A stretch of 64,000 nt of DNA, from the NCBI GenBank assembly GCA_964598205.1, contig CAZRBB010000003.1, forward strand, positions 115,186 through 179,185. The letters run 5' to 3'. Source of the DNA: an uncultured Candidatus Saccharibacteria bacterium. Lineage in GTDB: Bacteria > Patescibacteriota > Minisyncoccia > CAIUEV01 > JAHKAQ01. The notes under the pieces were generated by a model, which did not search any database, was not told where the DNA came from, and saw nothing but the letters and a program-made list of their open reading frames with translations. This document shows, in pieces, positions 21,534-64,000 of the stretch. The position numbers and the translations under genes are program-made. Position 1 is the stretch's first letter. Each line of letters opens with the position of its first letter.

Positions 21534-21759
21534 AGGGGAAAGTTAAGAATTATGATGTTATTATAGCGGAAAGAGGTGGTTAATCAATTGTGGATGGAGA
21601 ATAATGAATAATTGACTAGCAGCAATATTAAAATTCTAAGGAATACATTCTAACGGGCTTAGCTTTTAGGAGTACGCTACGCTTCGCCCAGCGGCTTCGC
21701 TTGCTCGAGTTGGCTTTCTTTGATTTATAATCGATTTTTGGAAAATTGGGTGGAAGGGG

Positions 21760-21788
21760 TTGCCAGAAAGTGTTATTTATGATATAGT
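21760..21788 (+). promoter_or_regulatory. Sigma70-like promoter TTGCCA-N17-TATAGT with extended -10 TG
   Basis: Hexamers at 21760-21765 and 21783-21788 with an exact 17-nt spacer. A near-identical promoter lies at 24330-24358. Confidence 0.6.
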
Positions 21789-21892
21789 ATGATGTTGTAT
21801 TACGGAGAGGCAGATTAAGAAAGAATCGGAAAGAATGAGAGAACTTTAAAAATCTGCCGAATAAAAATCAATTACCTTGAGGGAGGTCAAAC

Positions 21893-22828
21893 ATGTTTGG
21901 AATTGCAAGAGGAAGAAAACGGGAAAGAAGTTTGGCTATTGGGGCGACTGGCAGTAACGGTCGCCAGGTGTCCGGTATTTTTACGGACATCGATAATACA
22001 TTTGTTTATGATGGCTGCAAAGCGGCTACAGTGGCTGTTCTGGGCCTGGCGTGCAAACGCCGGATGCCCGTAGTTGCAGTGACCGGGGCGGATTTAAATT
22101 CGGTTTTTTCACGAATCATGGCAGACGAACTGCCATACTTTAGGGCCCTGGCTACTTCTTGCGGAACGGAGATTTATTTTTTGTCCAAAGGAGGGTATTA
22201 CCAGGATCATCATTGGGATAACCAGCTCCGAAGCAGGTTCAACCGGAAAGAAGTTTTTTTCCGGGCGGAGAATTTGGCAAGGGAATGGGCTGTAACAAGC
22301 CCAGGCTGTGAACTGGAAATTCAGAAGAAGAAGGTTACCGAGAAGTACAAGGTAAGCTTCTATTTTAAAGCCAGCGACGGCTTGGTAGCGTCGATGGCGG
22401 CAGAGGAAATTTTAAGCTACTTTTCTGAGTACCAGTTGGCTTGGTGTGAGGATATTACTTGGGAACCGAAAGACGGTTTGCGGCGGTACTGTGTGGATGT
22501 GTTAGCCGCAAACAAGCAAGACGCGGTAGAATACATTACGGAGCAACTTGGGATCACTGATGGCATTGTAGCTGGAGATTCTGGCAACGATGCCGAAATG
22601 GTTCTGGATTGCGATCGGCGTTTTGTCGGAGTAGTTGTTGGCGGTGCGAGGGAAGAGCTGAAAGAAGCGCTCCGCAAGCGTGATCCGCGGCCAGTCGGCA
22701 AAATCCAGGACAGCAGAGGTTTTTCTCGGTACTACCTTGACGGACGCTTTGTCCTGGTGGACGAACATCCGGACAGGAGAGGGCCGGAGTCAATTTTAGC
22801 AGCTCTGGAGGTGCTTTACAGCGCTTAA
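21893..22828 (+). CDS. HAD-IIB phosphatase, sucrose-phosphate phosphatase-like
   Basis: Motif I TDIDNTF and motif IV AGDSGNDAEM. SD gagggagg. GC-rich coding sequence. Immediately upstream of the SPS-like gene. Confidence 0.75.
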   Translation: MFGIARGRKRERSLAIGATGSNGRQVSGIFTDIDNTFVYDGCKAATVAVLGLACKRRMPVVAVTGADLNSVFSRIMADELPYFRALATSCGTEIYFLSKGGYYQDHHWDNQLRSRFNRKEVFFRAENLAREWAVTSPGCELEIQKKKVTEKYKVSFYFKASDGLVASMAAEEILSYFSEYQLAWCEDITWEPKDGLRRYCVDVLAANKQDAVEYITEQLGITDGIVAGDSGNDAEMVLDCDRRFVGVVVGGAREELKEALRKRDPRPVGKIQDSRGFSRYYLDGRFVLVDEHPDRRGPESILAALEVLYSA

Positions 22829-22897
22829 GGAGTAAAAATCAAAAAAACCAAAAAACAGAAGCAGGCTCTGGGGCGACTTGGGGCCGAGGAGTGGATA

Positions 22898-24268
22898 ATG
22901 GAAGCGACAGCAAAAACAGCGACAGGACGGCAAGAGGCGGGGAAAGCCATTTACGTGGTTAGTACCCATGGTTACTTTGACCTGAGTTCGGAGACCGGCA
23001 GTGTATCGACAGCCGGTCGGCCGGACACCGGTGGGCAGACGGTATATACCGTCGAGCTTGCCAAGGCGTTGGGCCGGCTGGGCTACCTGGTATTTCTCGT
23101 GGTCCGGTGGTTTGACCCGTCCAAAAGAGAGTTGCAAAAGCTGGGCGATAATGCCTGGTTGCTGCGACTTCGGGGCGGACCTTGGGGATTCGTTCCCAAG
23201 GAAAGGATCTACTCGTTACTTCCGGAAATTTCCGACAATCTGGTCTCCTTTATAGAGGATGACTGGAAGGAAATGTTTAGGGAAGCAGGCGATAAGGCAC
23301 CAGAAAATGTAGATCCGGCACTGATCCATGGCCACTACATCGATGGCGGATTAGTAGCCGTTTCCGTGGCCCGCCATTTCCGTTGTCCGGTTTTTTGGAC
23401 CAGTCATTCGCTGGGTGCATTGAAAAGAGAGCGGATGGGTGGTGATCCCGAAAAGATGGAAACGGAGTTCAACTTTCGTCATCGGATAGAACAGGAAGTA
23501 GCGGTGATGAAGAAGGTCGCTAAACATGGCGGACAAACAGTGACCGCCAAAACAGAACCGGGGGACATTGAGCGCCTTTATGGGCTTGAGTTGCCGGATC
23601 TGCAGTTTATTCCGCCGGGGGTGGACACAAAAAAGTTTCATCCACTGCCATGTGGGAAAGAGATTGATCCGATTCCCGGTTGGCCAGCAGTTGGTGGACC
23701 TGTTGTCTTAATGGGTGGCCGGATTGCTAAGACCAAGGGCTATGAGCTAGCGCTCTATGCGTTTCACCGAGTGTTGCGTGAATTTCCAGACGCAAGCTTG
23801 GTGATATTTGGTGGATCGGATAACCCGTCTGGAGAGGAACAAGCTGTTCTCCAGGTAATGGACGATTACCGGGAAAAAAAAGGGATTGCCCGGCGCGTCT
23901 TTTTTCTTGGTGGCTTGACCCATGACCAGCTTCCAAAAGTTTACCGGCGAGCAGACTTGTTTTTGCTGCCGAGCAAGCACGAACCTTTTGGGATGGTACC
24001 GCTGGAGGCAGCAGCTTGCGGAACACCGGTAGTGGTCAGTTGCCATGCCGGGATTGCTTCGGAACTGAAGGACGGCGAGAATTGTTTGATCGTTGATCCC
24101 GAGGATACCCACGAGTTGGCAGAAGCGATGGCGACGCTGTTGCGCTCTTGCGAATGCGCCAAAAAAGTCGCTAAAAACGGTCACTTGACCGTCACCCGGG
24201 ATTATTCTTGGGAAGGCATCGCCAGGAGGCACTTAATTTTTTGGCGCGCCAATGGCGCCGTGATTTGA
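22898..24268 (+). CDS. Sucrose-phosphate synthase-like GT4 glycosyltransferase (GT domain only)
   Basis: GRPDTGGQTVYTVELAKALG, IHGHYIDGG, SHSLGALKRERM, PPGVDTKKF and EPFGMVPLEAAACGTPVV align with the SPS/sucrose-synthase family signatures. Confidence 0.85.
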   Translation: MEATAKTATGRQEAGKAIYVVSTHGYFDLSSETGSVSTAGRPDTGGQTVYTVELAKALGRLGYLVFLVVRWFDPSKRELQKLGDNAWLLRLRGGPWGFVPKERIYSLLPEISDNLVSFIEDDWKEMFREAGDKAPENVDPALIHGHYIDGGLVAVSVARHFRCPVFWTSHSLGALKRERMGGDPEKMETEFNFRHRIEQEVAVMKKVAKHGGQTVTAKTEPGDIERLYGLELPDLQFIPPGVDTKKFHPLPCGKEIDPIPGWPAVGGPVVLMGGRIAKTKGYELALYAFHRVLREFPDASLVIFGGSDNPSGEEQAVLQVMDDYREKKGIARRVFFLGGLTHDQLPKVYRRADLFLLPSKHEPFGMVPLEAAACGTPVVVSCHAGIASELKDGENCLIVDPEDTHELAEAMATLLRSCECAKKVAKNGHLTVTRDYSWEGIARRHLIFWRANGAVI

Positions 24269-24329
24269 ACCTTATAGCAGGGAGGAAGAAGAGAAGCCTA
24301 ATTGCTTTTACTTCTACCTCCCTTTTTTG

Positions 24330-24358
24330 TTACCAATAAAATAAAAGTATGATATAGT
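24330..24358 (+). promoter_or_regulatory. Sigma70-like promoter TTACCA-N17-TATAGT with extended -10 TG
   Basis: Shares the 15-mer tatgatatagtatga with the promoter at 21760-21788. Confidence 0.6.
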
Positions 24359-24429
24359 ATGAAAAATAGATCGGAGCACCTTACCAAAAACAAACAACCC
24401 CCAACATCTGGTTGAGGGAGGTACTTTAC

Positions 24430-25191
24430 ATGGGAACTCTTGTATTCGATATCGACGGAACATTGACTAAGGCAGGAGGGTTCGCGGCCGTTCCATGTGA
24501 ACCTCCAACAGAAGTAAAAACCGCTATCCAAGCACAGCAACGAAAGCATCAGATCGTGCTGTTAACTGGACAACCTTTGCGCGTGGCTACCGGGATGGCT
24601 AGAATGCTGGATCTTCCGCATTGTTTGGTAGCACCAGACTATGGGGCGTTCGTTTGTAGCCCAAGAAATCTGGCAGAAAAGGAGTTTCTGATTAATAGAA
24701 AGGCTTTAGAGGCTTTAATGTTGGTTAAGAATTTTTTAGTGCCGTCGTTTCAAAAATTAGGAGGCAGAATTGACTCCCGCGACGGCATCGGCATTATCAG
24801 TTTTATTTGGGAGTGTCGAGATGGTTGGGCCGATGCTCAGCGGCTCGTGGTCTCTTCTGCCTACGACAAGTTTGTGGCTAATAACGGTTTACGGTTTCAG
24901 TGGAACAGGATTGATTTGTCCATGAATGTAATGCCGGCCGAGCTTTCAAAGGGACTGATTGCTTCCAGGTATTCCGATATTCTGGTGGCAGCCGGAGACA
25001 CCAGCAGCGATCTGCCGGTAATTCAAAAAGCTCTTTTTCCCATAGTTACCCATGACGAGGGAATGTCGATTCATCCTGATCTTGCGGCAGTCGCTGTGGA
25101 TCGGGGATATATCGCTTCCCCAGAAGAACATCATGGATGGGGGTTGATTTCAGGACTCCAAGCTGCACAAGCGGCTGGGATACTGAATTAA
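24430..25191 (+). CDS. HAD-IIB phosphatase (second SPP/Cof-like paralog). The start is placed at ATG 24430.
   Basis: FDIDGTLT and AAGDTSSDLP motifs. SD gagggagg 8 nt upstream. Confidence 0.7.
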   Translation: MGTLVFDIDGTLTKAGGFAAVPCEPPTEVKTAIQAQQRKHQIVLLTGQPLRVATGMARMLDLPHCLVAPDYGAFVCSPRNLAEKEFLINRKALEALMLVKNFLVPSFQKLGGRIDSRDGIGIISFIWECRDGWADAQRLVVSSAYDKFVANNGLRFQWNRIDLSMNVMPAELSKGLIASRYSDILVAAGDTSSDLPVIQKALFPIVTHDEGMSIHPDLAAVAVDRGYIASPEEHHGWGLISGLQAAQAAGILN

Positions 25192-25333
25192 AACTAGGAG
25201 CGGCTTTGCCTTTGGGCAATCGCCGCTTCTTTTAGTTTTGGTGATTTGTTATTATTATGGGGTTCATGCATCTTTGATTAGATGAATTTTGCACTAATTT
25301 GTTGTTTGTAGATTTAAAACATAATTAAAAACT

Positions 25334-26404
25334 ATGAGTCGACACAACTATGGAGTGCGGATCGATGCTAGCGGGACATATCACGGTATGCGTTCTCTTG
25401 TTTTGGAAAACGAAAAATTACGGATTACTGTATTGTTAGATAAGGGAACGGATATTGTTGAGTTTTTGCATAAGCCAACAGATACTGATTTTATGTGGAA
25501 ATCACCACTGGATTGGCATTCGGCCGGTCAATTTTTGCCTACTACTCATAGTTCTATTAGCAGTTTTATGGATTCTTTTGGCGGTGGGTGGCAAGAATGT
25601 TTTCCTAGCGGTGGTCCGCATACTCAATACAAAGGCACAGAGATTGGTTTGCACGGTGAGGTGTGCACTATTCCTTGGGACTGCATTATTACTAAGGATT
25701 CTCCGGAAGTTGTGGAAGCGGTTTGTACTGTTAGAACTTATCGCACCCCTTTTATAATCAAAAAAACATTGAGACTAAAACGGGAAAGTTCAGTGCTAGA
25801 AATGGACGAAGAAATTACCAATGAAGGAAAGGAAGATTTACCTTATATGTGGGGACATCACCCTTCTTTTGGCGAAAATATTTTAGATGATTCTTGCCGA
25901 ATTGATTTACCGGCCGGCAAGGTAGAAACTTACAGTAAAGTTCAAGATAAAATTTCTTCCCAGTTTGCTCCGGAAACTAAGGGTAAGTGGCCGTTTTTAA
26001 AAAACATTAAAGGGGAGCTGATTGACAATTCAAAGGTTCTTCCGGCTAGTAAAAAAACGCACGATCTTTTATTTATCTCTGGATTAAAAGCGGGTTGGTA
26101 CGCCTTGACTAACACCAAGAAAAAATTGGGCATTGGAATGAGTTGGGATGAAAAACTTTTTCCCTATGTGTGGTTTTGGCAAGTTTATGGTGGAGGAAGC
26201 GGTTATCCTTGGTATGGTCGAACTTATAATATTGCGCTTGAACCTTGGACCAGCTGGCCCAACGATGGGGTGGAGGTGGCGGTAAAAAATGGAACAGCCC
26301 CTATTCTAAAAGCGGGGAAAACGATTAAAACTAATTTTTCAGCGGTTGTTTATTGTGGGAAAAAAAAGGTTAGTTTAATCGATAGAAAAGGGAATGTTAA
26401 ATAG
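25334..26404 (+). CDS. Aldose 1-epimerase (mutarotase) superfamily protein, DUF4432-like
   Basis: WGHHPSFGEN resembles the mutarotase HPYFN motif. 356 aa. Confidence 0.55.
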   Translation: MSRHNYGVRIDASGTYHGMRSLVLENEKLRITVLLDKGTDIVEFLHKPTDTDFMWKSPLDWHSAGQFLPTTHSSISSFMDSFGGGWQECFPSGGPHTQYKGTEIGLHGEVCTIPWDCIITKDSPEVVEAVCTVRTYRTPFIIKKTLRLKRESSVLEMDEEITNEGKEDLPYMWGHHPSFGENILDDSCRIDLPAGKVETYSKVQDKISSQFAPETKGKWPFLKNIKGELIDNSKVLPASKKTHDLLFISGLKAGWYALTNTKKKLGIGMSWDEKLFPYVWFWQVYGGGSGYPWYGRTYNIALEPWTSWPNDGVEVAVKNGTAPILKAGKTIKTNFSAVVYCGKKKVSLIDRKGNVK

Positions 26405-26508
26405 ATTCTGCTAGGATTCATCTTTTTTCTTGGTGGGCAAGGTTTTTACGACTTATTCATTTGTATTTTTGTTCCTTAAATTCTGTATGATACAATATCT
26501 GTACCGTT

Positions 26509-26604
26509 CGCTTACCGTAATCTAATTACGCCCCGCCTCGGACGGCGGGTATGCTCACTTACTTCTCCGGCTTTGCCTTGAACTATAACCAAATGTGTAA
26601 GTCC
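26509..26604 (+). repeat. Dispersed TIR repeat family, copy B (5'-truncated; carries the GC-hairpin insert ccgcctcggacggcggg)
   Basis: cgcttaccgtaatctaattacgcc...ggctttgccttgaactataaccaaatgtgtaagtcc. Confidence 0.8.
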
Positions 26605-26634
26605 TAATTTTCATAAAATAATTAAAATAAAATT

Positions 26635-28194
26635 ATGTCCATTCCATCTTCTGGCCTAAAGAATAAAGTACAATTGATTACTTATGCCGACAGTCTTGGT
26701 CGGAATTTAAAGGAACTAAATATTGTTTTAGATAATTATTTTAAAGGGGTTGTTTACGGGGTGCATATTCTACCTTTCTATCCGTCTTCTTCGGATCGCG
26801 GCTTTTCTCCTTTAACGCATTTTAAAGTAGATTCGGCTTTTGGAGATTGGGAAGATGTAGAAAGAATCGCTAAAAAGTACGATCTAATGTGCGATTTTAT
26901 TCCGAATCATGTTTCTGCTAAGTCTGATTGGTTTTGTGATTTTTTAGAAAAAGGAGACAAGTCTCTTTATAAAGATTATTTTATTACGGCGGAGAAATTT
27001 TCTAGGCGAATCAAAAAAAATCGAGAAATTTTTCCAGCACTGACCGATTACCTAGAAAGAATTGCTAATAAATTAAGGCGATTAGATATTGTTTTTCATA
27101 AAGGGGGTGTTAATCGTTTTGTGCTAAAAAAAATTTATCGTCCTCGTCCGGGAACACCGTTTGTGGAGTTTAAGTTAAAAGATGGCACAATAAGAAATAT
27201 TTGGTGTACTTTTTCTGCTGATCAGATTGATCTAGATATCAACAATCCCGAAGTTAAGAATCATTTTAAAAAAACTTTAATTTTTTTGGCTGAAAGGGGA
27301 ATAAGATTAGTGCGCTTGGATGCGGTGGGTTATGCAGCCAAAGAGAGAGGAACTAATAACTTTTTAATTCCCGAAACTTATCAGTTGATTGAAGATCTGA
27401 CTAGAATTGCGCATCAGCGAGGAATAAAAATTCTTCCAGAAGTCCATAATCATTACACTTTCCAAATGCAGTTGGCGCGGGCTAAGGGAGTGGATTATAT
27501 TTACGATTTTGCTTTGCCTCTTTTATTAATGAATGCACTTTTTACCAAAAATGTTAAAAATTTAAAACACTGGATTAAGATTAGACCCAAAAAGGCGATT
27601 ACCACCCTAGACACGCACGACGGCTTGCCAGTGCCAGATGTAGAAGATTTAATGCCAGAAGAAGAACGAAAGATGGTGATTAAAAGAATTCGGGAAAATG
27701 GTGGGAATGATGCATTGCGGGCTTCTGGGGCCAATTCCAACAATGTGGATGTTTATCAGATTAATTGCACTTATTATTCTGCTCTAGGGGAAGATGATAA
27801 TAGTTATATTATTGCGCGGGCGGTGCAATTTTTTGTGCCGGGAATTCCCCAAGTTTATTATGTGGGACTTTTGGCTGGCAAAAATGATGCTCAAAGATTA
27901 AATAAAACCGGTATTGGTCGAGACATTAATCGTCATGCTTATACTATTGCTGAAGTAGCGGAAGAAATGAAACGGCCGGTGGTGGAGCGGTTGTTTTGGT
28001 TGATTCGTTTCCGGAATCGCTATCCAGCATTTAATGGTCGATTTTATACCAAGAAAACGGAAGAATCTGCTTTGGTTATAGGATGGAAAAAGGAAACCTG
28101 TTATTGTGAGCTGAGAGTGGATTTTTTAACCAAGAGAGCAATCGTGGAATATAGGGAGAAGAAGTCGGGTAAGCGTCGTCGCCATGAGCTTTAG
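26635..28194 (+). CDS. GH13_18 sucrose phosphorylase family (sucrose, glucosylglycerol or glucosylglycerate phosphorylase)
   Basis: KNKVQLITYADSLG...GVHILPFYPSSSDRGFSP...IPNHVS, RLDAVGYAAKE, LDTHDG, and YQINCTYYSALG...QFFVPGIPQVYYVGLLAGKND closely follow sucrose phosphorylase signatures. Confidence 0.9.
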   Translation: MSIPSSGLKNKVQLITYADSLGRNLKELNIVLDNYFKGVVYGVHILPFYPSSSDRGFSPLTHFKVDSAFGDWEDVERIAKKYDLMCDFIPNHVSAKSDWFCDFLEKGDKSLYKDYFITAEKFSRRIKKNREIFPALTDYLERIANKLRRLDIVFHKGGVNRFVLKKIYRPRPGTPFVEFKLKDGTIRNIWCTFSADQIDLDINNPEVKNHFKKTLIFLAERGIRLVRLDAVGYAAKERGTNNFLIPETYQLIEDLTRIAHQRGIKILPEVHNHYTFQMQLARAKGVDYIYDFALPLLLMNALFTKNVKNLKHWIKIRPKKAITTLDTHDGLPVPDVEDLMPEEERKMVIKRIRENGGNDALRASGANSNNVDVYQINCTYYSALGEDDNSYIIARAVQFFVPGIPQVYYVGLLAGKNDAQRLNKTGIGRDINRHAYTIAEVAEEMKRPVVERLFWLIRFRNRYPAFNGRFYTKKTEESALVIGWKKETCYCELRVDFLTKRAIVEYREKKSGKRRRHEL

Positions 28195-28223
28195 GAAATA
28201 AATGCCTTATTAATCAAAATAAA

Positions 28224-29054
28224 ATGACCAGAGAAAGGCTAACTATTACACTAAAAAAAGATATCATCGGTTTTTTGGATCGTTTTGTAGATGGGGCACG
28301 GATTAGAAACCGTTCTCATGCCATAGAATATATTTTGGCTAAGCATTTTTTACCGGAATCGGTTAAGGTGTTGATTCTAACAGGGGGAGAGGGGATAAAG
28401 TTGCGACCAATAACTTACGAAATTCCTAAAGCATTGATCCCGATTCATAATCGACCGCTTTTGGAATACACGCTGGAATTTTTAGCTAAGGCGAATTTAA
28501 AAGACTTAATTTTTGCGACTGGTCACTTGGGAGAAAAAATAGAAGCTCACTTTTTAGATGGGACTCGGTTTGGAGTAAAAATAAGTTATTCCAGAGAGAA
28601 AGAAAAAAATTCAGGAACAGTAGTGCCGCTTTTAGAAGCGCGTTCTCAATTGGAAGGTGGGACTTTTTTGGTAGTTTATGGCGATGTTCTAGCTGATATT
28701 GATTACTTGGATCTTTTAGAGTTTCATAAAAAAAATAAGGGATTGGCAACGGTGGCTTTGACTTCGGTAGATCGACCGGCGGAATGGGGAGTAGCAAGTT
28801 TGCAGGGTAATCGGATTACGCAGTTCGAAGAGAAACCAAAAACTAAAGTTTCTTCTCACTTGATTAATGCTGGGGTTTATGTTTTTGATTCGCGGATTTT
28901 TGATTATTTGAGCCCAGACCAGCGAAGTTTGTCTGGGGATGTTTTCCCTCTTTTGGCTCAAAAAGGTGAATTGTTGGGATATTCTTTTTTTGGTCGGTGG
29001 CACGATGTTGGTTCGCCACGGGCCTATACTCAGGCGCTTAAGGAATGGCGGTAA
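28224..29054 (+). CDS. Fusion protein: N-terminal ribbon-helix-helix (CopG/Arc/MetJ-like) domain plus a sugar-1-phosphate nucleotidyltransferase (RmlA/GalU/GlgC-like NTP_transferase)
   Basis: Residues ~4-42 RLTITLKKDIIGFLDRFVDGARIRNRSHAIEYILAKH fit the RHH beta-alphaA-G-x-(S/N)-alphaB pattern. They are followed by LILTGGEGIKLRPITYEIPKALIPI, the G-rich NDP-sugar pyrophosphorylase motif. Confidence 0.7.
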   Translation: MTRERLTITLKKDIIGFLDRFVDGARIRNRSHAIEYILAKHFLPESVKVLILTGGEGIKLRPITYEIPKALIPIHNRPLLEYTLEFLAKANLKDLIFATGHLGEKIEAHFLDGTRFGVKISYSREKEKNSGTVVPLLEARSQLEGGTFLVVYGDVLADIDYLDLLEFHKKNKGLATVALTSVDRPAEWGVASLQGNRITQFEEKPKTKVSSHLINAGVYVFDSRIFDYLSPDQRSLSGDVFPLLAQKGELLGYSFFGRWHDVGSPRAYTQALKEWR

Positions 29055-29413
29055 TTCAATTACGAATAAAGAATAAAGAATTACGAATAAAATTAGAATT
29101 GAGAGTTTTAAATTATTTTGGAATTCAGAATTAACAAGAAGGGATTCTTCGCTTCGCTCAGTATGACAAAAATAATTTGTAATTTAGAATTAAAAATTTA
29201 TTCGAAATTCAAAACTCGAAATTAAGAATTATATGTCTTGGTAAATTTGACAGTACAAAAAAAAGGCTTATGATAAAGCCATAAATTATTCAATGATTTT
29301 AAGACAAACCACAATCTGTTCCGCAGTAAAAAAGGCAGGGTCTACCCCAGCCGGTTTTGGTTTGTTCTTAAGAAGTAACGGATGATCTAAGGAAAAAATC
29401 TAAGAGCAAACCA

Positions 29414-29448
29414 AAATCGGCAATCAAAAAGCCGATTTTTTGTTTTTT
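29414..29448 (+). terminator. Rho-independent terminator at the end of a 360-nt noncoding stretch
   Basis: aaatcggc-aatcaaaaa-gccgattt + TTTTTGTTTTTT. Confidence 0.5.
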
Positions 29449-29570
29449 GAACCTTTTGGTCGGAAGATAAACTTCTCCCAAACGGCTCAAAATGAGTCGG
29501 AAAGAACATTACAAACCAATCAACAAAAAATCCAAATGGGTAAGAACCAATAACCGAGGGAGGTTAAAGC

Positions 29571-31142
29571 ATGGAAGCACAAGCACAAACATTACAGAGT
29601 CAGGGGCAGACTGTTGCCAGCATAGCGACGGTCAAAGAATTACAACTTTTTAATGCACCGGTAGTAAATTGGGTGCGCGGCTGGCCGGCAATTAGTTTTG
29701 AGCCGGAGTTTTCCAAAGAAGGCAACCAGATTGCGGATATTATTCACGCGGGATGTTATGCTAAGCGAGTGCCAGTGGAAGTAGTGAAAGAGCTGGTGAA
29801 GATTGCTTACGCAACTGGCTTAGTTGCTGGTAGTGATGGGCATCGGATCGGTTACGACGGTTCTTGTATTGCACAAATTGCCCCGGAGTGCGCAGGTCGG
29901 AACGGTGACGGAATTTTTCTGGCTGATCTTGACCGGTTACGGAGCCAAAAGCCGGCGAGCGTTCCGGAATTTGTGACGCAGAGCGTAAAGTTTTTTCAGC
30001 GGAACGGAGATTTATTTTCCGGATTCTCCGGTTGCAATGGCGACTTTTCCAAAAAGTTTAAGTATGGAGTTTTCCGGATGGAATCGCTTTATTCCATTCC
30101 GCCGGGATTTAGGGAAATGGGACTTGAGGATTTTTTCCGCTTCGTGGCGATAAATCTTTGGGAGCGAAAAGAATTGTTTGGGGAGAATTTTGTGGAGGTG
30201 CATCGATCTTCTACAATTCCAAAGGACGACGACCCCGAAAGATGTTTATTCGAAACCTTTGGTCACTGGGAACAACTGGAAGGCGTCCTGGACACACAGC
30301 AGTGGGGGAAGGTGCCGCTTTTCTGCCGCATTGCTCCGTCTTACGGTGAGTGCTGTTTGGGGTGGGAACTGGCAATCACGGTGACCGATCCTCGGTCCAA
30401 CCTGTTTACCGTTGGGGTAAATATGGTGTGGGACAGTGTGCGGCATCAGTTTGTGCCGATTATCAACAAGATCCAGACCATGGTGCTTCACCTCGACAAG
30501 TGTCTTCGGTATTGGGGGCAGGAAATGCTTTCTGACGACGAGCTCTTGAGCCGAAAACTGTTCTTGGAGCTTCAGGGGGAAATCAACAAGTTTTTGGGTG
30601 GTGACCTGTTTTACACCATGATCGCCGCGATTGTTTCTTTCTATCGGTTGCGAGAGTATCCAGCAATCAAGGGGATTTGCGGTCGGGATAATCTTTGGCT
30701 GAAGTATCACGCCAAAGAAGTTCTGGCCAAGAAGGGTGTGGCGGCGGCAGAACAGGTACGGAAACGATCGGAGGAGATTTACGACAAGAAATTTGCTCAC
30801 CTGGGATTTGCCCGAACGCACGGTTGCTGGGAATTGCCGCAGGAGAGCTATGCTAAATTTCTTCGGCGAGCACTGGTTCCATATCAACTGGCACAAAACG
30901 AGATCATAAGGGTAGAGGTGGAGCGAGGCGGTCGGATTCAGCCAAAGAACATTAGTCTTCCGACTTATGCGGAAAAAACAACGCCGAATGGGTTGGGAGC
31001 GGTTTTAAAGGTGATGGACAATTGTTTTTGTTCCGTCCCCTTGGAGATTGGTTCCTTTCAGGGGATAGGCGAAGTTCTCCAGGAACGGCGGAACGAGCGT
31101 TCAAGAATCAAAAAAGAGAGGGAGGCCCTGTTGATTGGTTAA
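29571..31142 (+). CDS. Hypothetical protein, 523 aa, GC-rich, with no recognisable motif
   Basis: Long clean ORF with SD gagggagg 6 nt upstream, ~50% GC, and a terminator at 31180-31212. Confidence 0.6.
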   Translation: MEAQAQTLQSQGQTVASIATVKELQLFNAPVVNWVRGWPAISFEPEFSKEGNQIADIIHAGCYAKRVPVEVVKELVKIAYATGLVAGSDGHRIGYDGSCIAQIAPECAGRNGDGIFLADLDRLRSQKPASVPEFVTQSVKFFQRNGDLFSGFSGCNGDFSKKFKYGVFRMESLYSIPPGFREMGLEDFFRFVAINLWERKELFGENFVEVHRSSTIPKDDDPERCLFETFGHWEQLEGVLDTQQWGKVPLFCRIAPSYGECCLGWELAITVTDPRSNLFTVGVNMVWDSVRHQFVPIINKIQTMVLHLDKCLRYWGQEMLSDDELLSRKLFLELQGEINKFLGGDLFYTMIAAIVSFYRLREYPAIKGICGRDNLWLKYHAKEVLAKKGVAAAEQVRKRSEEIYDKKFAHLGFARTHGCWELPQESYAKFLRRALVPYQLAQNEIIRVEVERGGRIQPKNISLPTYAEKTTPNGLGAVLKVMDNCFCSVPLEIGSFQGIGEVLQERRNERSRIKKEREALLIG

Positions 31143-34871: not shown

Positions 34872-34944
34872 GGGCCAATAGCTCAGTTGGTAGAGCGCAG
34901 CATTCGCATTGCTGAGGTCAGGGGTTCGATTCCCCTTTGGTCCA
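34872..34944 (+). tRNA. tRNA-Ala (anticodon CGC)
   Basis: GGGCCAATAGCTCAGTTGGTAGAGCGCAGCATTCGCATTGCTGAGGTCAGGGGTTCGATTCCCCTTTGGTCCA. G3:U70 Ala identity pair; anticodon loop TTCGCAT; CCA not encoded. Confidence 0.9.
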
Positions 34945-39988: not shown

Positions 39989-40065
39989 TGGTCGGGGCAG
40001 CCGGACTTGAACCGGCGACCTCACGCACCCCATGCGTACGCGCTAGCCAACTGCGCTATGCCCCG
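39989..40065 (-). tRNA. tRNA-Pro (anticodon GGG), CCA encoded
   Basis: Reverse complement CGGGGCATAGCGCAGTTGGCTAGCGCGTACGCATGGGGTGCGTGAGGTCGCCGGTTCAAGTCCGGCTGCCCCGACCA. Anticodon loop ATGGGGT with G37. Confidence 0.85.
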
Positions 40066-44762: not shown

Positions 44763-45887
44763 ATGGAGCCTTTGACTATTTTTTTTGTTGTTTTAATTGT
44801 TGGCCTTTTGGGCTTGTCTTTTTATTTTTACCAAAAGCTAAAAGAGTTAGAGATTAAAAAGGAAGTAGGAAGAGGCGAGGAGCAGAGAACGCTTTTGTCT
44901 TTAATGAATGAAATTAGGAGAGATATTGCGGATTCTGCCGGAGTGAATCGAAGAGAACTTCAGGGAAGATTAGATAAAATCGGTGACAATCTTACTAGGG
45001 GTATTAGTCATTCTACTGATTCTGTGGAGCGGCAGTTTAAAGAAAGTCGAGCATTAATTCAGGAGACAGCTAAAAAAATAGCCGAGTTTGAACGGACTAA
45101 CGAAAAGATTGCTGGTTTTGCTGGACAGTTGCAGAGTTTAGAAAATATTCTTTTGAATCCTAAACAAAGAGGAGTGTTAGGAGAATATTATTTGGAAACA
45201 ATGCTTAAAAATGTTTTTGAACCAGGGCAATACCAAATGCAGTATAAATTTCCCGATGGAGAAATTGTTGATGCGGTGATTTTTTATCAGAAAAAGATTT
45301 TGCCAATAGATTCTAAATTCTCCATGGAGAACTATAACAAAATGATTTCCGAAAGAGATCCAGAAAGGAAAAAACTTTTAGGAAAAAAATTAGTTGCCGA
45401 TTTTAAAAACCGAATTCAAGAAACAGCACGCTATATTAAGGTCAAGCACAATACATTTGATTTTGCTTTTATGTTCATTCCTTCAGAAGGAGTTTTCTAT
45501 GATGTTTTGGCTGCTAGGGTCGGTTCGCTAAAGGAAACTTCTTTTAGTTTAATGGAGTATGCTCACCAAAGGAAGGTGATCATTGTTTCTCCTAGTTCCT
45601 TTTTTGCCTACTTACAAACAATTCTTCACGGTCTTCGTGCTGTTGATTTAAGAGAGTCGGTGGATTTTATTTTAAAAAGAATAGAACAATTAAATCGGCA
45701 TCTTGTTTCTTATGAAGTTTATTTTTCTAAGCTAGGAAAAAGTCTTTCTTCTTCAGTAATTGCTTATAATCAGTCTTCAAAGGAATTTGCCAAAATTGAT
45801 AAAGATATATACCGTATTACAGAGGGTCGTGAAGGCGGTAAGCTTAATTTAGAAGAGCTGGAAAGGCCCTCTGCCATTGATTCTTAG
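44763..45887 (+). CDS. rmuC: DNA recombination protein RmuC
   Basis: N-terminal TM plus coiled coil, then the RmuC core FMFIPSEGVFYDVL. Confidence 0.8.
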   Translation: MEPLTIFFVVLIVGLLGLSFYFYQKLKELEIKKEVGRGEEQRTLLSLMNEIRRDIADSAGVNRRELQGRLDKIGDNLTRGISHSTDSVERQFKESRALIQETAKKIAEFERTNEKIAGFAGQLQSLENILLNPKQRGVLGEYYLETMLKNVFEPGQYQMQYKFPDGEIVDAVIFYQKKILPIDSKFSMENYNKMISERDPERKKLLGKKLVADFKNRIQETARYIKVKHNTFDFAFMFIPSEGVFYDVLAARVGSLKETSFSLMEYAHQRKVIIVSPSSFFAYLQTILHGLRAVDLRESVDFILKRIEQLNRHLVSYEVYFSKLGKSLSSSVIAYNQSSKEFAKIDKDIYRITEGREGGKLNLEELERPSAIDS

Positions 45888-45973
45888 CCGATATGGTGAA
45901 ATTGGTAGACACGCGACACTCAAAATGTCGTGGACTTCGGTCCATGTCGGTTCGACTCCGACTATCGGCACCA
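45887..45973 (+). tRNA. tRNA-Leu (anticodon CAA), class II long variable arm, CCA encoded
   Basis: GCCGATATGGTGAAATTGGTAGACACGCGACACTCAAAATGTCGTGGACTTCGGTCCATGTCGGTTCGACTCCGACTATCGGCACCA. Confidence 0.9.
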
Positions 45974-63588: not shown

Positions 63589-63947
63589 CCAAAAGAGGAC
63601 GGATGGCCGCTTGCTTTTATTAGCAAGAGGAAAGTCCGGACATCCCTTAGACTTGATTTAAGGAAAAGAGTAGTGGGTAACACCCACCTTTTTTAGGAGC
63701 GATCCTTAAAACGGGATAGTGCCACAGAGACAATACTAGTTCCACCTTGGTGGGACGAAAGGTGAAAAGTGAATTGGTTTTGTTTACAAAATACGATTCT
63801 CGGGCGCTAGTGATAGCGTTTGTGGAAAACCCTACTTGATGCAAGGCTGGGCCTTTTTTAAAAGGAATGCCGCTTGAGCCCACTGGTAATGGTGGGTCTA
63901 GATAAATGGTCATCGATTACAGAATCCGGCTTATAGTCCTCTTTTGG
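63589..63947 (+). ncRNA. rnpB: RNase P RNA (bacterial type A)
   Basis: P1 ccaaaagaggac/gtcctcttttgg; GAGGAAAGTCCGG (P4 5' strand); GTGCCACAGAGA; ACAGAATCCGGCTTATAG (P4 3' strand). Confidence 0.85.
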
Positions 63948-64000
63948 TATAGTAGAAGAAGGGGTGTTTTTAAAAATGTTTATTCGTTATATGATAAAGG

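What the first reader, a model, noticed from the sequence alone, without database searches (positions are those of the whole stretch)
28224..29054. Ribbon-helix-helix DNA-binding domain fused to an NDP-sugar pyrophosphorylase
Residues ~4-42 form a textbook RHH: beta strand RLTITL, helix A KKDIIGFLDRFVD, a Gly turn, and N-capped helix B NRSHAIEYILAKH. They join directly to a RmlA/GalU-type nucleotidyltransferase domain (LILTGGEGIKLRPIT...). This RHH-enzyme fusion is not a common architecture; known examples include PutA and NikR. It suggests a trigger enzyme that binds DNA in response to sugar-1-phosphate or NTP. It may autoregulate the adjacent sucrose-cycle genes.
Basis: partly seen in the sequence, partly recalled or inferred. 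Interest (0 to 1): 0.6.

Follow-up and report, generated by a model that had tools for sequence, protein, structure and literature searches.

The report
DNA-binding sugar-nucleotide enzyme with its operator
This gene fuses a small DNA-binding domain to a sugar-activating enzyme, and its relatives in hundreds of ultra-small bacteria and archaea carry a matching repeated DNA motif on their own promoters, so it is probably an uncharacterised enzyme that also switches sugar genes on and off.

Summary
ORF 28224-29054 (+) encodes 276 aa: a ribbon-helix-helix (RHH) domain (residues ~4-42) joined by about 5 residues to an NTP_transferase domain (48-273).

The N-terminus is translated and is the most conserved part of the protein. 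R5, T7, T9 and I27-A33 are invariant in 120 homologs that share only 50-63% identity overall.

The fusion is not a one-off. It was found in at least 593 species genomes of Patescibacteria (CPR) and DPANN archaea. A second class of about 210 aa keeps the RHH but has a degenerate, evidently inactive enzyme domain.

New here: 31 of 73 homolog genes, against 7 of 407 neighbouring ORFs, carry a direct repeat GTATGAT-N3-GTATGAT on their promoter. Its period is exactly 10 bp. GTATGA is the half-site of E. coli NikR, whose ribbon has the same R-x-T-x-T pattern. Homologs with an R-x-S-x-T ribbon have GTATTAC repeats instead.

In the window the motif is not directly upstream of the gene. It lies on two promoters of the sucrose cluster (21777-21803 and 24347-24363), and a lone half-site lies at 26485-26491.

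Best reading: a self-regulating trigger enzyme of sugar-nucleotide metabolism. DNA binding, catalysis and the effector are untested. I found no literature on it.

The parts
28224..29054 (+). Gene for the RHH-nucleotidyltransferase fusion protein (276 aa)
   Evidence: ORF listing and sequence. The identical protein is on 9 contigs. 120 full-length homologs at 49-64% identity.
28233..28349 (+). Ribbon-helix-helix domain (residues 4-42). Ribbon is ERLTITLK, with R5, T7 and T9 facing outward. Helix A is 12-21, the turn is DGARIRN, helix B is 30-41.
   Evidence: Profile match to NikR (E 2.5e-5) and CopG. Pfam RHH_1 in 31/32 homologs. AF2 helices. R5, T7, T9, D19, D23, G24 and I27-A33 invariant in 120 sequences.
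28365..29042 (+). Sugar-1-phosphate nucleotidyltransferase domain (residues 48-273), of the GMPP / CugP-UGPase / MurU-like short type
   Evidence: PF00483 E 4.4e-44. PDB 8x7s (annotated UTP-glucose-1-phosphate uridylyltransferase) E 1.2e-36 and GMPPB E 2.3e-35. Foldseek TM 0.71-0.78. Conserved GGxGxKxRP, PK, DG, GT, YGD, EKP, NAG and WxD motifs.
24347..24363 (+). Operator-like direct repeat O2: GTATGAT-ata-GTATGAA, embedded in promoter-like TTACCA-17-TATAGT (24330-24358). It lies 67 nt upstream of the HAD-like gene, the first gene of the run HAD-like / DUF4432 / sucrose phosphorylase / RHH-NTase.
   Evidence: 1 mismatch to the family consensus. There are 2 such hits in the 64 kb window against 0.01 expected. 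Promoter scan. Sequence.
21777..21803 (+). Operator-like triple repeat O1: TTATGAT-ata-GTATGAT-gtt-GTATTAC, overlapping promoter-like TTGCCA-17-TATAGT (21760-21788). It lies 90 nt upstream of the sucrose-6-phosphate phosphatase gene.
26485..26491 (+). Single GTATGAT half-site in the 231-nt gap before the sucrose phosphorylase gene. The position 10 bp downstream is degenerate (ATATCTG). Possibly a weak internal site.
   Evidence: Three of the five GTATGAT heptamers in the window lie in the three intergenic regions of this cluster.
21893..22828 (+). Sucrose-6-phosphate phosphatase-like gene (PF05116), first gene downstream of O1
   Evidence: Pfam annotation of the same contig. Start codon seen.
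22898..24268 (+). GT4 glycosyltransferase, sucrose-phosphate-synthase-like
   Evidence: Pfam Glycos_transf_1 E 3.9e-37 and a weak hit to the sucrose synthase GT-B domain.
24430..25191 (+). HAD-like hydrolase gene, first gene downstream of O2
   Evidence: Weak HAD hits with a DxDGT motif. Gene call.
25334..26404 (+). DUF4432 protein
   Evidence: PF14486 E 1e-24.
26635..28194 (+). Sucrose phosphorylase. It ends 29 nt before the RHH-NTase start codon.
   Evidence: TIGR03852 E 1.1e-159, above the curated cut-off.

Best explanation
The gene encodes a bifunctional trigger enzyme. One part is a sugar-1-phosphate nucleotidyltransferase, probably a UDP-/NDP-hexose pyrophosphorylase. The other is an N-terminal ribbon-helix-helix domain that makes the same polypeptide a sequence-specific repressor.

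Two chains pair their ERLTITLK strands into the DNA-reading ribbon. Two or three such dimers, presumably held together by the enzyme domains as a tetramer or higher oligomer, then occupy direct repeats GTATGAT-N3-GTATGAT. These repeats are spaced exactly one helical turn apart and overlap the -10 / extended -10 region of the promoter. Binding there would block RNA polymerase.

In most relatives the site lies on the gene's own promoter, which gives autoregulation. In this genome it lies on the two promoters of the sucrose cluster, and the second of these most likely also drives the RHH-NTase gene. The ligand state of the enzyme domain (substrates or NDP-sugar product) is proposed to set DNA affinity, giving feedback control of sugar activation.

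Shown: the domain identities, the conservation, the motif, its position on promoters and its co-variation with the ribbon.

Inferred: actual DNA binding, repression rather than activation, oligomeric state, catalytic activity, substrate and effector.
For: The RHH assignment is supported at profile level and by the model.

The outward ribbon residues R5/T7/T9 and the helix-B N-cap I27-A33 are invariant in 120 homologs at about 50% overall identity. In RHH proteins, ribbon positions 2, 4 and 6 make the base contacts, and at least two dimers bind regularly spaced adjacent sites (PMC3413123).

The motif GTATGAT-N3-GTATGAT lies within 200 nt upstream of 31/73 family genes but only 7/407 other ORFs in the same loci (odds ratio 42, p 4e-22). 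Its density is 66-fold higher than in the rest of the loci.

Adjacent half-sites were exactly 10 bp apart in all 34 closely spaced pairs but one (8 bp); none were 9 or 11 bp apart. All exact matches are on the gene's strand, and the sites overlap promoter-like TTGACA/-10 elements.

The half-site equals the E. coli NikR half-site GTATGA (PMC7055735). NikR is also the best PDB match of the RHH profile, with ribbon QRVTITL.

Co-variation: R-x-T-x-T ribbons go with GTATGAT (31/58) and never with GTATTAC. R-x-S-x-T ribbons go with GTATTAC-N3-GTAWTAC (5/7) and never with GTATGAT (Fisher p 2.5e-6). This holds in DPANN archaea, where the repeat lies just upstream of the start codon and close downstream of AT-rich stretches that read like TATA boxes, and so cannot be a bacterial -10 box.

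The dead-enzyme paralogs keep the RHH. One of them heads an operon of a ManC-like nucleotidyltransferase, PGM/PMM and a ROK kinase, with a GTATGAT site at its start.

Other operator-preceded genes are PfkB sugar kinases, a HAD hydrolase and a second paralog.

An unrelated ParD-type RHH with ribbon ERMTITLP also has GTATGAT x3 at 10-bp period on its promoter.

In the window, the only two sites with at most 1 mismatch (0.01 expected) both lie on promoters of the sucrose cluster that ends with this gene.
Against: - Nothing here is biochemical. No binding, repression or enzyme activity has been measured.
- Only about half of the homolog loci show a recognisable site within 250 nt. The closest relative (L004, 63% identity) has none.
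- The repeat contains a -10-like hexamer (TATGAT / TATAGT), so part of its conservation could be promoter function.
- CopG has the identical ribbon core RLTITL but reads GCA(C/T) boxes. Ribbon residues therefore do not by themselves fix the target.
- The ribbon/operator co-variation rests on few independent lineages (a DPANN group plus one bacterial pair), so the Fisher p-value overstates independence.
- Foldseek with the isolated 47-residue monomer model gave no significant hit (best E 0.58), although the list is mostly RHH proteins.
- The family has Lys where the G-x-G-T-R signature has the catalytic Arg (K59 in 107/120). Full catalytic competence is therefore not certain.
- In the window, transcription from O2 through to the gene crosses 143- and 231-nt gaps and has not been shown.
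Confidence: 0.65

Rival explanations
1. The protein is essentially a transcription factor. The nucleotidyltransferase fold serves only as a ligand-sensing and oligomerisation domain, as the C-terminal domain does in NikR, and it has little or no catalytic role even in the full-length class.
For: A whole class of paralogs has lost the GGxGxKxRP...PK loop, the EKP hairpin and the C-terminal WxDxG motif but keeps the RHH. In that class an intact nucleotidyltransferase is encoded immediately downstream. The full-length class has Lys instead of the signature Arg.
Against: In the full-length class nearly every catalytic-type motif is invariant or nearly so across 120 sequences: G54, G55, G57, R61, P62, P68, K69, D154, E203, P205, N215, G217, W259 and D261. 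That is more conservation than ligand binding alone would need. In the window it is the only nucleotidyltransferase in a cluster that needs NDP-glucose.
Confidence: 0.15
2. The RHH is only an obligate dimerisation module for the enzyme and does not bind DNA. The GTATGAT repeats would then be a promoter element or the site of another regulator whose regulon happens to include this gene.
For: RHH folds are obligate dimers and nucleotidyltransferases work as dimers or tetramers. The repeat overlaps -10-like hexamers. About half of the loci lack the motif.
Against: The invariant positions are the solvent- and DNA-facing ones (R5, T7, T9, and N29, R30, S31 at the helix-B N-cap), not only the core. 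The motif co-varies with ribbon residue 7 and persists in archaea, which have different promoters. It is 42-fold enriched at this gene compared with neighbouring genes. It matches the half-site of the closest characterised RHH, NikR.
Confidence: 0.12
3. The RHH is an antitoxin-like or mobile-element remnant, or the fusion is an annotation or assembly artefact (true start near residue 48).
For: The single-sequence hits include MazE-type antitoxins. A GTG codon exists at residue 49.
Against: The same architecture with the same start position occurs in at least 593 species genomes. The N-terminus is under stronger constraint than the enzyme domain. The gene calls on both sides of the gene in the five contexts read show no toxin-family neighbour.
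Confidence: 0.02

Closest known systems
NikR (nickel-responsive repressor, E. coli; PDB 1q5v / 2hzv)
   Same: NikR is the closest characterised RHH by profile (E 2.5e-5). Its ribbon QRVTITL has the same R-x-T-x-T outward residues and the same NRS helix-B cap. Its half-site is the same, GTATGA. It has the same logic: an N-terminal RHH followed by a ligand-binding domain that oligomerises the protein and gates DNA binding.
   Different: The C-terminal domain is a nucleotidyltransferase fold, not the ACT-like nickel-binding domain. The half-sites are direct repeats 10 bp apart that overlap the -10 region, not an inverted pair separated by 16 bp. The effector is presumably a sugar nucleotide or its precursors, not a metal.
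PutA (proline utilisation A)
   Same: PutA is the textbook RHH-enzyme fusion and trigger enzyme. Its N-terminal RHH represses its own operon while the rest of the protein catalyses steps of the regulated pathway.
   Different: The enzyme domains are unrelated (PRODH / P5CDH versus nucleotidyltransferase). PutA is about 1300 aa and switches through membrane association and FAD redox state. Here the protein has 276 aa with a linker of about 5 residues.
BirA and NadR (enzyme-repressors of cofactor metabolism)
   Same: Each is a single polypeptide that both catalyses a nucleotidyl-transfer reaction and represses the pathway's genes. In these proteins the substrate or adenylate state sets DNA binding, which is the mechanism proposed here.
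   Different: Their DNA-binding domains are winged-helix / HTH, not RHH. The enzyme folds and pathways are different.
CopG (pMV158) and other small RHH repressors (Arc, MetJ, ParG, omega)
   Same: CopG has the identical ribbon core RLTITL. These proteins bind as several dimers, cooperatively, to regularly spaced repeats that overlap a promoter.
   Different: They are stand-alone proteins of about 45-100 aa with no enzyme or sensor domain. CopG reads GCA(C/T) boxes, not GTATGAT.
CugP-type UDP-glucose pyrophosphorylase / GDP-mannose pyrophosphorylase / MurU
   Same: These are the best sequence and fold matches of residues 48-273 (8x7s E 1.2e-36; GMPPB; VTC1; MurU). The domain has the same short Rossmann-like nucleotidyltransferase core with an R-P-x-T loop.
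   Different: None of the solved enzymes carries an N-terminal DNA-binding domain. This family lacks the C-terminal beta-helix of GMPP/CugP and has Lys in place of the signature Arg.

Membership tests
Ribbon-helix-helix superfamily (Pfam RHH_1 PF01402, CopG/Arc/MetJ clan) | Sequence-profile match to RHH models | tested here: met
   The window sequence alone is below threshold. The family profile matches NikR at E 2.5e-5 and CopG at 0.007. 31/32 homologs match PF01402, best 3.6e-6. Homologs P0087 and L086 are above the gathering score.
Ribbon-helix-helix superfamily (Pfam RHH_1 PF01402, CopG/Arc/MetJ clan) | N-terminal strand with alternating polar (outward) and hydrophobic (core) residues, then helix A, a turn, and helix B capped by S/T/N | tested here: met
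   E-R-L-T-I-T-L-K, helices at 12-21 and 30-41, turn DGxxIRN, cap N29-R30-S31.
Ribbon-helix-helix superfamily (Pfam RHH_1 PF01402, CopG/Arc/MetJ clan) | Intertwined homodimer that forms the two-stranded ribbon | not testable with these tools
   Only monomer prediction was available. In the monomer models the strand is extended coil, as expected. The Foldseek list is mostly RHH proteins but is not significant.
Ribbon-helix-helix superfamily (Pfam RHH_1 PF01402, CopG/Arc/MetJ clan) | Sequence-specific binding to repeated DNA sites | tested here: inconclusive
   The comparative signal is strong: a motif at the gene's own promoter, a 10-bp period, and ribbon/operator co-variation. There is no binding experiment.
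NTP_transferase (PF00483) sugar-1-phosphate nucleotidyltransferases | Profile match above the curated cut-off over the whole domain | tested here: met
   151 bits against a cut-off of 21.2, residues 48-273. Fold match TM 0.7-0.78 to GMPP, CugP-type and MurU structures.
NTP_transferase (PF00483) sugar-1-phosphate nucleotidyltransferases | N-terminal G-x-G-T-R-(L/M)-x-P signature with catalytic Arg, followed by a conserved Lys | tested here: inconclusive
   G54-G55-x-G57-x-K59-x-R61-P62 and P68-K69 are conserved, but the signature Arg position is Lys in 107/120 sequences.
NTP_transferase (PF00483) sugar-1-phosphate nucleotidyltransferases | Catalysis of NTP + sugar-1-P -> NDP-sugar + PPi, and substrate identity | not testable with these tools
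   No NCBIfam equivalog reaches its cut-off; the best hits are Arch_glmU, man1P GTase, rmlA_long and MurU, all far below.
NikR family | C-terminal ACT-like tetramerisation domain with His/Cys nickel site | tested here: not met
   The NikR models match residues 4-41 only. The rest of the protein is a nucleotidyltransferase.
PutA family | RHH followed by proline dehydrogenase and P5C dehydrogenase domains | tested here: not met
   No such domains were found.
Type II antitoxin (RHH class: MazE, ParD, CopG-like) | Small protein encoded next to, and neutralising, a toxin gene | tested here: not met
   The protein is fused to an enzyme in all homologs. The gene calls on both sides of it in the five contexts read carry no toxin family.
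Trigger enzymes (enzyme plus transcription regulator in one protein) | The same polypeptide has a metabolic activity and controls transcription of related genes in response to metabolite state | tested here: inconclusive
   The architecture, the operator at its own and other sugar-gene promoters and the dead-enzyme paralogs all fit. Neither activity has been measured.

The most novel reading that the evidence does not exclude
This is the founding member of an uncharacterised regulator family shared between CPR bacteria and DPANN archaea. In this reading, catalytic turnover or ligand occupancy of a sugar nucleotidyltransferase is coupled directly, through a 5-residue linker, to an RHH that reads 10-bp-phased GTATGAT/GTATTAC repeats. 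It would be one of the few conserved transcription-factor/operator pairs in these reduced genomes. It would have crossed the bacterial/archaeal boundary while keeping its operator geometry, and it would have repeatedly given rise to dead-enzyme sensor paralogs.
Probability: 0.4. Interest if true: 0.78.

Novelty: new variant of a known kind. Interest (0 to 1): 0.65.

Why it matters
Gene regulation in Patescibacteria and DPANN archaea is almost unexplored. Few of these organisms can be grown in culture, and they encode few recognisable regulators.

This work gives a concrete protein family (at least 593 species genomes), a predicted operator with defined sequence, phasing and promoter position, a first sketch of a regulon (sugar kinases, phosphatases/mutases, nucleotidyltransferases and, in this genome, a sucrose synthesis/degradation cluster), and a specificity-switch prediction (ribbon T7 versus S7). 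All of these can be tested with recombinant protein and oligonucleotides, without culturing the organism.

It would also add a small, tractable case to the short list of RHH-enzyme trigger proteins (PutA), and give a natural series running from active enzyme-regulator to dead-enzyme sensor.

Tried and rejected
1. 28150-28223 contains nothing: the gap is 29 nt, with no GTATGA and no repeat. 26405-26634 has only one half-site.

2. Conserved gene neighbourhood. Four homolog contexts (next to MurJ; next to a second NTase, GalT and TrmB; next to a glucosamine-isomerase-family gene; next to a CNNM gene) share nothing with the sucrose cluster. Several relatives sit just after a 23S-5S rRNA operon. 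'Sucrose regulator' is therefore not a family property.

3. Unbiased scan of metagenome contigs for the triple repeat. It was dominated by perfect 10-bp microsatellites, many from one sample, and so was useless for a regulon census. It yielded one useful by-product, the ParD-type RHH with the same repeats.

4. Foldseek with the isolated 47-residue model gave no significant hit, best E 0.58.

5. Rfam found nothing in the long leaders between some operators and the next gene. Two of these leaders encode small non-conserved ORFs followed by terminators.

6. Four literature searches for an RHH-nucleotidyltransferase fusion or a CPR/DPANN regulator of this kind found nothing relevant. The library is incomplete, so this is absence of evidence only.

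7. The K-x-T-x-T ribbon subgroup (7 loci) shows neither operator type. Two loci have CGTAT-type repeats further upstream, but this was too thin to use.

8. The organism name was not recovered. The nearest relatives are Moranbacteria MAGs at 63% identity.
Full report
**1. The observation.** Pfam assigns residues 48-273 to NTP_transferase (PF00483, E 4.4e-44). Residues 1-47 taken alone are below every curated threshold. Their only hits are nevertheless RHH proteins: NikR, an RHH-type MazE and CdrS in NCBIfam, and NikR 1q5v and MazE9 in the PDB.

**2. Is the N-terminus real, and is it an RHH?**

- A homology search returned 1848 relatives. The best 120 are all about 275-285 aa, cover 99-100% of the query at 49-64% identity, and where named come from Patescibacteria MAGs.
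- Every one carries the N-terminal block RLTITL...D..(I/V)DG.(K/R)IRNRSHAIE.
- In these 120 sequences R5, T7, T9, D19, D23, G24, I27, R28, R30, S31, H32, A33 and E35 are invariant. The first 47 residues are on average more conserved than the enzyme domain.
- In about 80 genomic loci the ORF begins 26-32 codons before the RNRSH motif. A downstream start near residue 48 is therefore excluded.
- A profile of 32 N-termini (A1) matches E. coli NikR over positions 4-46 (E 2.5e-5) and CopG (E 0.007) in the PDB. 31 of the 32 sequences match Pfam RHH_1 individually.
- AlphaFold2 on the family alignment (pLDDT 88, pTM 0.81) gives an extended N-terminal segment, helices at 12-21 and 30-41, and then the nucleotidyltransferase fold from residue 48. 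The isolated domain gives the same two helices.
- Foldseek with that 47-residue monomer is not significant (best E 0.58). Its hit list is made up mostly of RHH proteins: MazE-mt1, Reg576, AvtR, ParD, CdbA.

I regard the RHH assignment as established at the sequence-profile level. The intertwined dimer itself could not be modelled with these tools.

**3. The enzyme domain.**

- The best solved relatives are 8x7s (tlr0611, deposited as UTP-glucose-1-phosphate uridylyltransferase, E 1.2e-36), human GMPPB, Arabidopsis VTC1, a Bacillus RmlA-like protein and MurU.
- The family conserves GG-x-G-x-K-x-RP, PK, (F)xDG, GT(A), YGD, EKP, NAG and W-x-D. The domain is therefore under the kind of constraint expected of an active enzyme.
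- One caveat: the position of the signature Arg in G-x-G-T-R is Lys in 107/120 members.
- No NCBIfam equivalog reaches its cut-off, so the substrate is open.

**4. How widespread, and in what forms?**

They are mostly Patescibacteria: Moranbacteria, Doudnabacteria, Buchananbacteria, Paceibacterota, Kerfeldbacteria, Gottesmanbacteria, Roizmanbacteria and Berkelbacteria. They also include DPANN archaea: Nanoarchaeia, Woesearchaeota, Parvarchaeota and Altiarchaeales.
- A full HMMER pass of the RHH profile over 1.84 billion cluster representatives found 585 clusters (161 below 1e-10).
- The lengths fall into three groups: the full-length class of about 255-290 aa, many short sequences of which the four read include clear truncations, and a distinct class of about 205-220 aa.
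- The 205-220 aa class aligns end to end with the full-length family (hhalign probability 100%, E 3.8e-49). It has lost the R-P-x-T...P-K loop, the EKP hairpin and the C-terminal W-x-D-x-G segment, and Pfam no longer recognises it as NTP_transferase. It keeps the RHH intact.
- In two genomes one of these dead-enzyme paralogs is the first gene of an overlapping run: RHH-dead / ManC-like nucleotidyltransferase / PGM-PMM / ROK kinase.

A lineage that discards catalysis but keeps the RHH, and sits at the head of a sugar-activation operon, is hard to explain unless the RHH has a regulatory function.

**5. The operator.** When I read the 100 nt upstream of the gene in 74 non-redundant loci, one motif stood out: GTATGAT(A)-N3-GTATGAT(A).

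- With at most 2 mismatches it occurs at 2.13 per kb in the 200 nt upstream of the gene, against 0.032 per kb in the remaining 589 kb of the same loci.
- At gene level, 31/73 family genes but only 7/407 other ORFs of at least 120 aa have it upstream on their own strand (odds ratio 42, p 4e-22).
- Of the 35 closely spaced pairs of adjacent half-sites (under 20 bp apart), 34 were exactly 10 bp apart and one was 8 bp; none were 9 or 11.
- All exact matches in all loci are on the gene's strand. Some sites have three repeats.
- The sites overlap promoter-like elements. They lie downstream of a TTGAC(A/T/C) box, and one repeat or the TGATATAGT junction between repeats supplies the (extended) -10.
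- GTATGA is the half-site of the E. coli NikR operator GTATGA-N16-TCATAC (PMC7055735). NikR is also the best structural relative of this RHH, and its ribbon QRVTITL has the same outward R-T-T pattern.
- Ribbon positions 2, 4 and 6 are the base-contacting ones in RHH proteins, and RHH repressors typically bind as two or more dimers on regularly spaced adjacent sites (PMC3413123).

**6. Co-variation.**

| Ribbon | Loci | GTATGAT repeat | GTATTAC-N3-GTA(A/T)TAC repeat |
|---|---|---|---|
| R-x-T-x-T | 58 | 31 | 0 |
| R-x-S-x-T | 7 | 0 | 5 |

The Fisher test on the GTATTAC column gives p 2.5e-6.

- The GTATTAC repeats keep the same 10-bp register.
- The R-x-S-x-T loci are mainly DPANN archaea. There the repeat lies 21-25 nt before the start codon, just after AT-rich stretches that read like TATA boxes (L056, L065, L072, L073, L075). 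It cannot be a bacterial -10 element.
- Two bacterial R-I-S-I-T loci have hybrid GTATGAA...TATTAC sites.
- The third repeat of the window's own O1 is GTATTAC.
- An unrelated ParD-type RHH antitoxin (ribbon ERMTITLP, 63% GC contig) has three GTATGAT repeats at 10-bp period about 25 nt before its start codon.

Two caveats apply. The S7 cases represent few independent lineages. And CopG, which has the identical ribbon core RLTITL, reads GCA(C/T) boxes, so the ribbon is necessary context rather than a code.

**7. The window itself.**

- The gene has no site of its own. It starts 29 nt after the sucrose phosphorylase stop.
- The 64-kb window has exactly two sites within 1 mismatch of the consensus, against 0.01 expected.
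- O1 is at 21777-21803 (TTATGAT ata GTATGAT gtt GTATTAC). It lies inside TTGCCA-17-TATAGT with an upstream TG, 90 nt before the sucrose-6-phosphate phosphatase gene.
- O2 is at 24347-24363 (GTATGAT ata GTATGAA). It lies inside TTACCA-17-TATAGT with an upstream TG, 67 nt before the HAD-like gene.
- A lone perfect half-site lies at 26485-26491 before the sucrose phosphorylase gene. Three of the window's five GTATGAT heptamers are thus in the three intergenic regions of this cluster.

The cluster reads as follows:

- ROK kinase (minus strand, divergent from O1)
- O1, then S6PP and an SPS-like GT4 glycosyltransferase
- O2, then HAD-like, DUF4432, sucrose phosphorylase (TIGR03852, E 1e-159) and the RHH-NTase

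Sucrose phosphorylase makes glucose-1-phosphate. A nucleotidyltransferase would turn it into NDP-glucose, the donor for the SPS-like enzyme. Synthesis and breakdown are thus encoded side by side, and control by a protein that senses the G1P/NDP-glucose node makes physiological sense. That last step is inference.

**8. Mechanism proposed.**

- Two chains form each RHH ribbon.
- Two or three dimers occupy the phased repeats on one face of the DNA, across the -10 region, and occlude RNA polymerase. In archaea they would block initiation downstream of the TATA box.
- The very short linker (residues 43-47) ties each ribbon to two enzyme domains. Ligand-induced changes in the enzyme oligomer could then alter the spacing or availability of the ribbons, as nickel does in NikR and bio-5'-AMP does in BirA.
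- The direction (repression), the effector and the stoichiometry are inferred, not shown.

**9. Comparison with what is known.** The protein works like NikR (RHH plus sensor domain, same half-site) and PutA (RHH plus enzyme). In logic it also resembles BirA and NadR. It is not a member of any of those families, because their defining C-terminal domains are absent. It is a member of the RHH superfamily and of Pfam NTP_transferase. Source annotations call these proteins only 'NTP transferase domain-containing protein' or similar. Four literature searches found no description of the fusion or of the motif. I class it as a new variant of a known kind, the RHH trigger enzyme or one-component regulator. 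Its distribution across two domains of ultra-small organisms is unusual, and its operator prediction is directly testable.

**10. Verdict.**

The sucrose link is local to this genome.
- Confidence that the protein is a sequence-specific DNA-binding regulator acting at GTATGAT repeats is about 0.75.
- Confidence in the full trigger-enzyme model, including catalysis and ligand control, is about 0.65.
- Interest: 0.65.

Noticed in passing
window 21589-21597; loci L012, L013, L014, L021, L022, L025, L026, L028, L029, L031, L037, L043 upstream regions: A DnaA-box-like nonamer (TGTGGATAA / TTATCCACA, in either orientation) recurs just upstream of the -35 box of many promoters that carry the GTATGAT repeats (TGTGGATGG in the window). 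It could be a second regulator site or a CPR promoter-upstream element.
   Followed up: no
window 22000-25400 and 29600-31000: Two islands of 48-53% GC sit in a 33-43% GC background. They cover the S6PP, SPS-like and HAD-like genes and the 523-aa ORF. The genes at 21893, 24430 and 29571 share the unusual ribosome-binding context GAGGGAGGT, whereas the sucrose phosphorylase and RHH-NTase genes start after AAAATAAAAT with no Shine-Dalgarno. This suggests horizontally acquired genes placed under local promoters.
   Followed up: partly
window 29571-31142 (+): A 523-aa ORF directly downstream of the finding has no Pfam hit at all and is GC-rich. Its function is unknown.
   Followed up: no
window 29055-29570: The 516-nt intergenic region after the gene contains a 42-nt imperfect inverted repeat (29078-29119 / 29169-29210), the best sigma-70-like promoter of the region (TTGACA-16-TATGAT, 29247-29274) and a hairpin followed by a T-run at about 29414-29450. 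This is a candidate small RNA of about 150 nt. Rfam has no match at gathering threshold.
   Followed up: partly
proteins P0170, P0172, P0176, P0185, P0190, P0203, P0230 and others; loci L089 875-1510, L212 7001-7636: A class of about 210-aa paralogs has an intact RHH and a degenerate nucleotidyltransferase-like domain. P0170 and its close variant P0271 lie after the ribosomal protein S20 gene and overlap the start of a ManC-like NTase / PGM-PMM / ROK operon. Intermediate forms that keep GG but lack the RP...PK loop also exist (P0218, P0240, P0242, P0251, P0252).
   Followed up: partly
L134 5944-6282 (- strand), also L171: A ParD-type RHH antitoxin-like gene on a 63% GC contig has ribbon ERMTITLP. 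It has three GTATGAT repeats at 10-bp period about 25 nt upstream of its start. This is the same operator grammar in an unrelated RHH.
   Followed up: partly
L012 324-3527, L021 195-310, L023 592-3874, L032 1-1405, L058 576-691: In several relatives the RHH-NTase gene lies immediately downstream of the 23S-5S rRNA genes. The 23S gene of L012 carries two group I introns.
   Followed up: no
L059, L060, L070, L071, L076, L078, L081 (upstream of the family gene): A subgroup with a K-x-T-x-T ribbon (EKLTVTIK) has neither the GTATGAT nor the GTATTAC repeats. L076 and L071 show (T)CGTAT repeats at about 10-bp spacing 110-150 nt upstream, possibly a third specificity class.
   Followed up: partly
L088 265-285, L057 and L058 upstream regions: Some sites are inverted rather than direct arrangements of the same half-site, for example GTATGATAC-CATCATA and GTATGATACTATCATAC. 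These are reminiscent of a compressed NikR palindrome.
   Followed up: no
window 26533-26551: A GC-rich hairpin (CCCGCC-tcgga-CGGCGGG) with no T-run lies in the leader of the sucrose phosphorylase gene, about 40 nt after the lone GTATGAT half-site. Its role is unknown.
   Followed up: no
window 63591-63949, 34872-34944, 39992-40065 (-), 45887-45970: The window also holds a bacterial class A RNase P RNA and three tRNA genes, consistent with a bacterial (CPR) chromosome segment.
   Followed up: no
L094, L097, L103, L136, L146, L152, L163 and others (metagenome sample Ga0126342): Perfect 10-bp tandem satellites containing GTATGAT are abundant in one metagenome. They swamp any motif-first search for the operator and are unrelated to the finding.
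   Followed up: no
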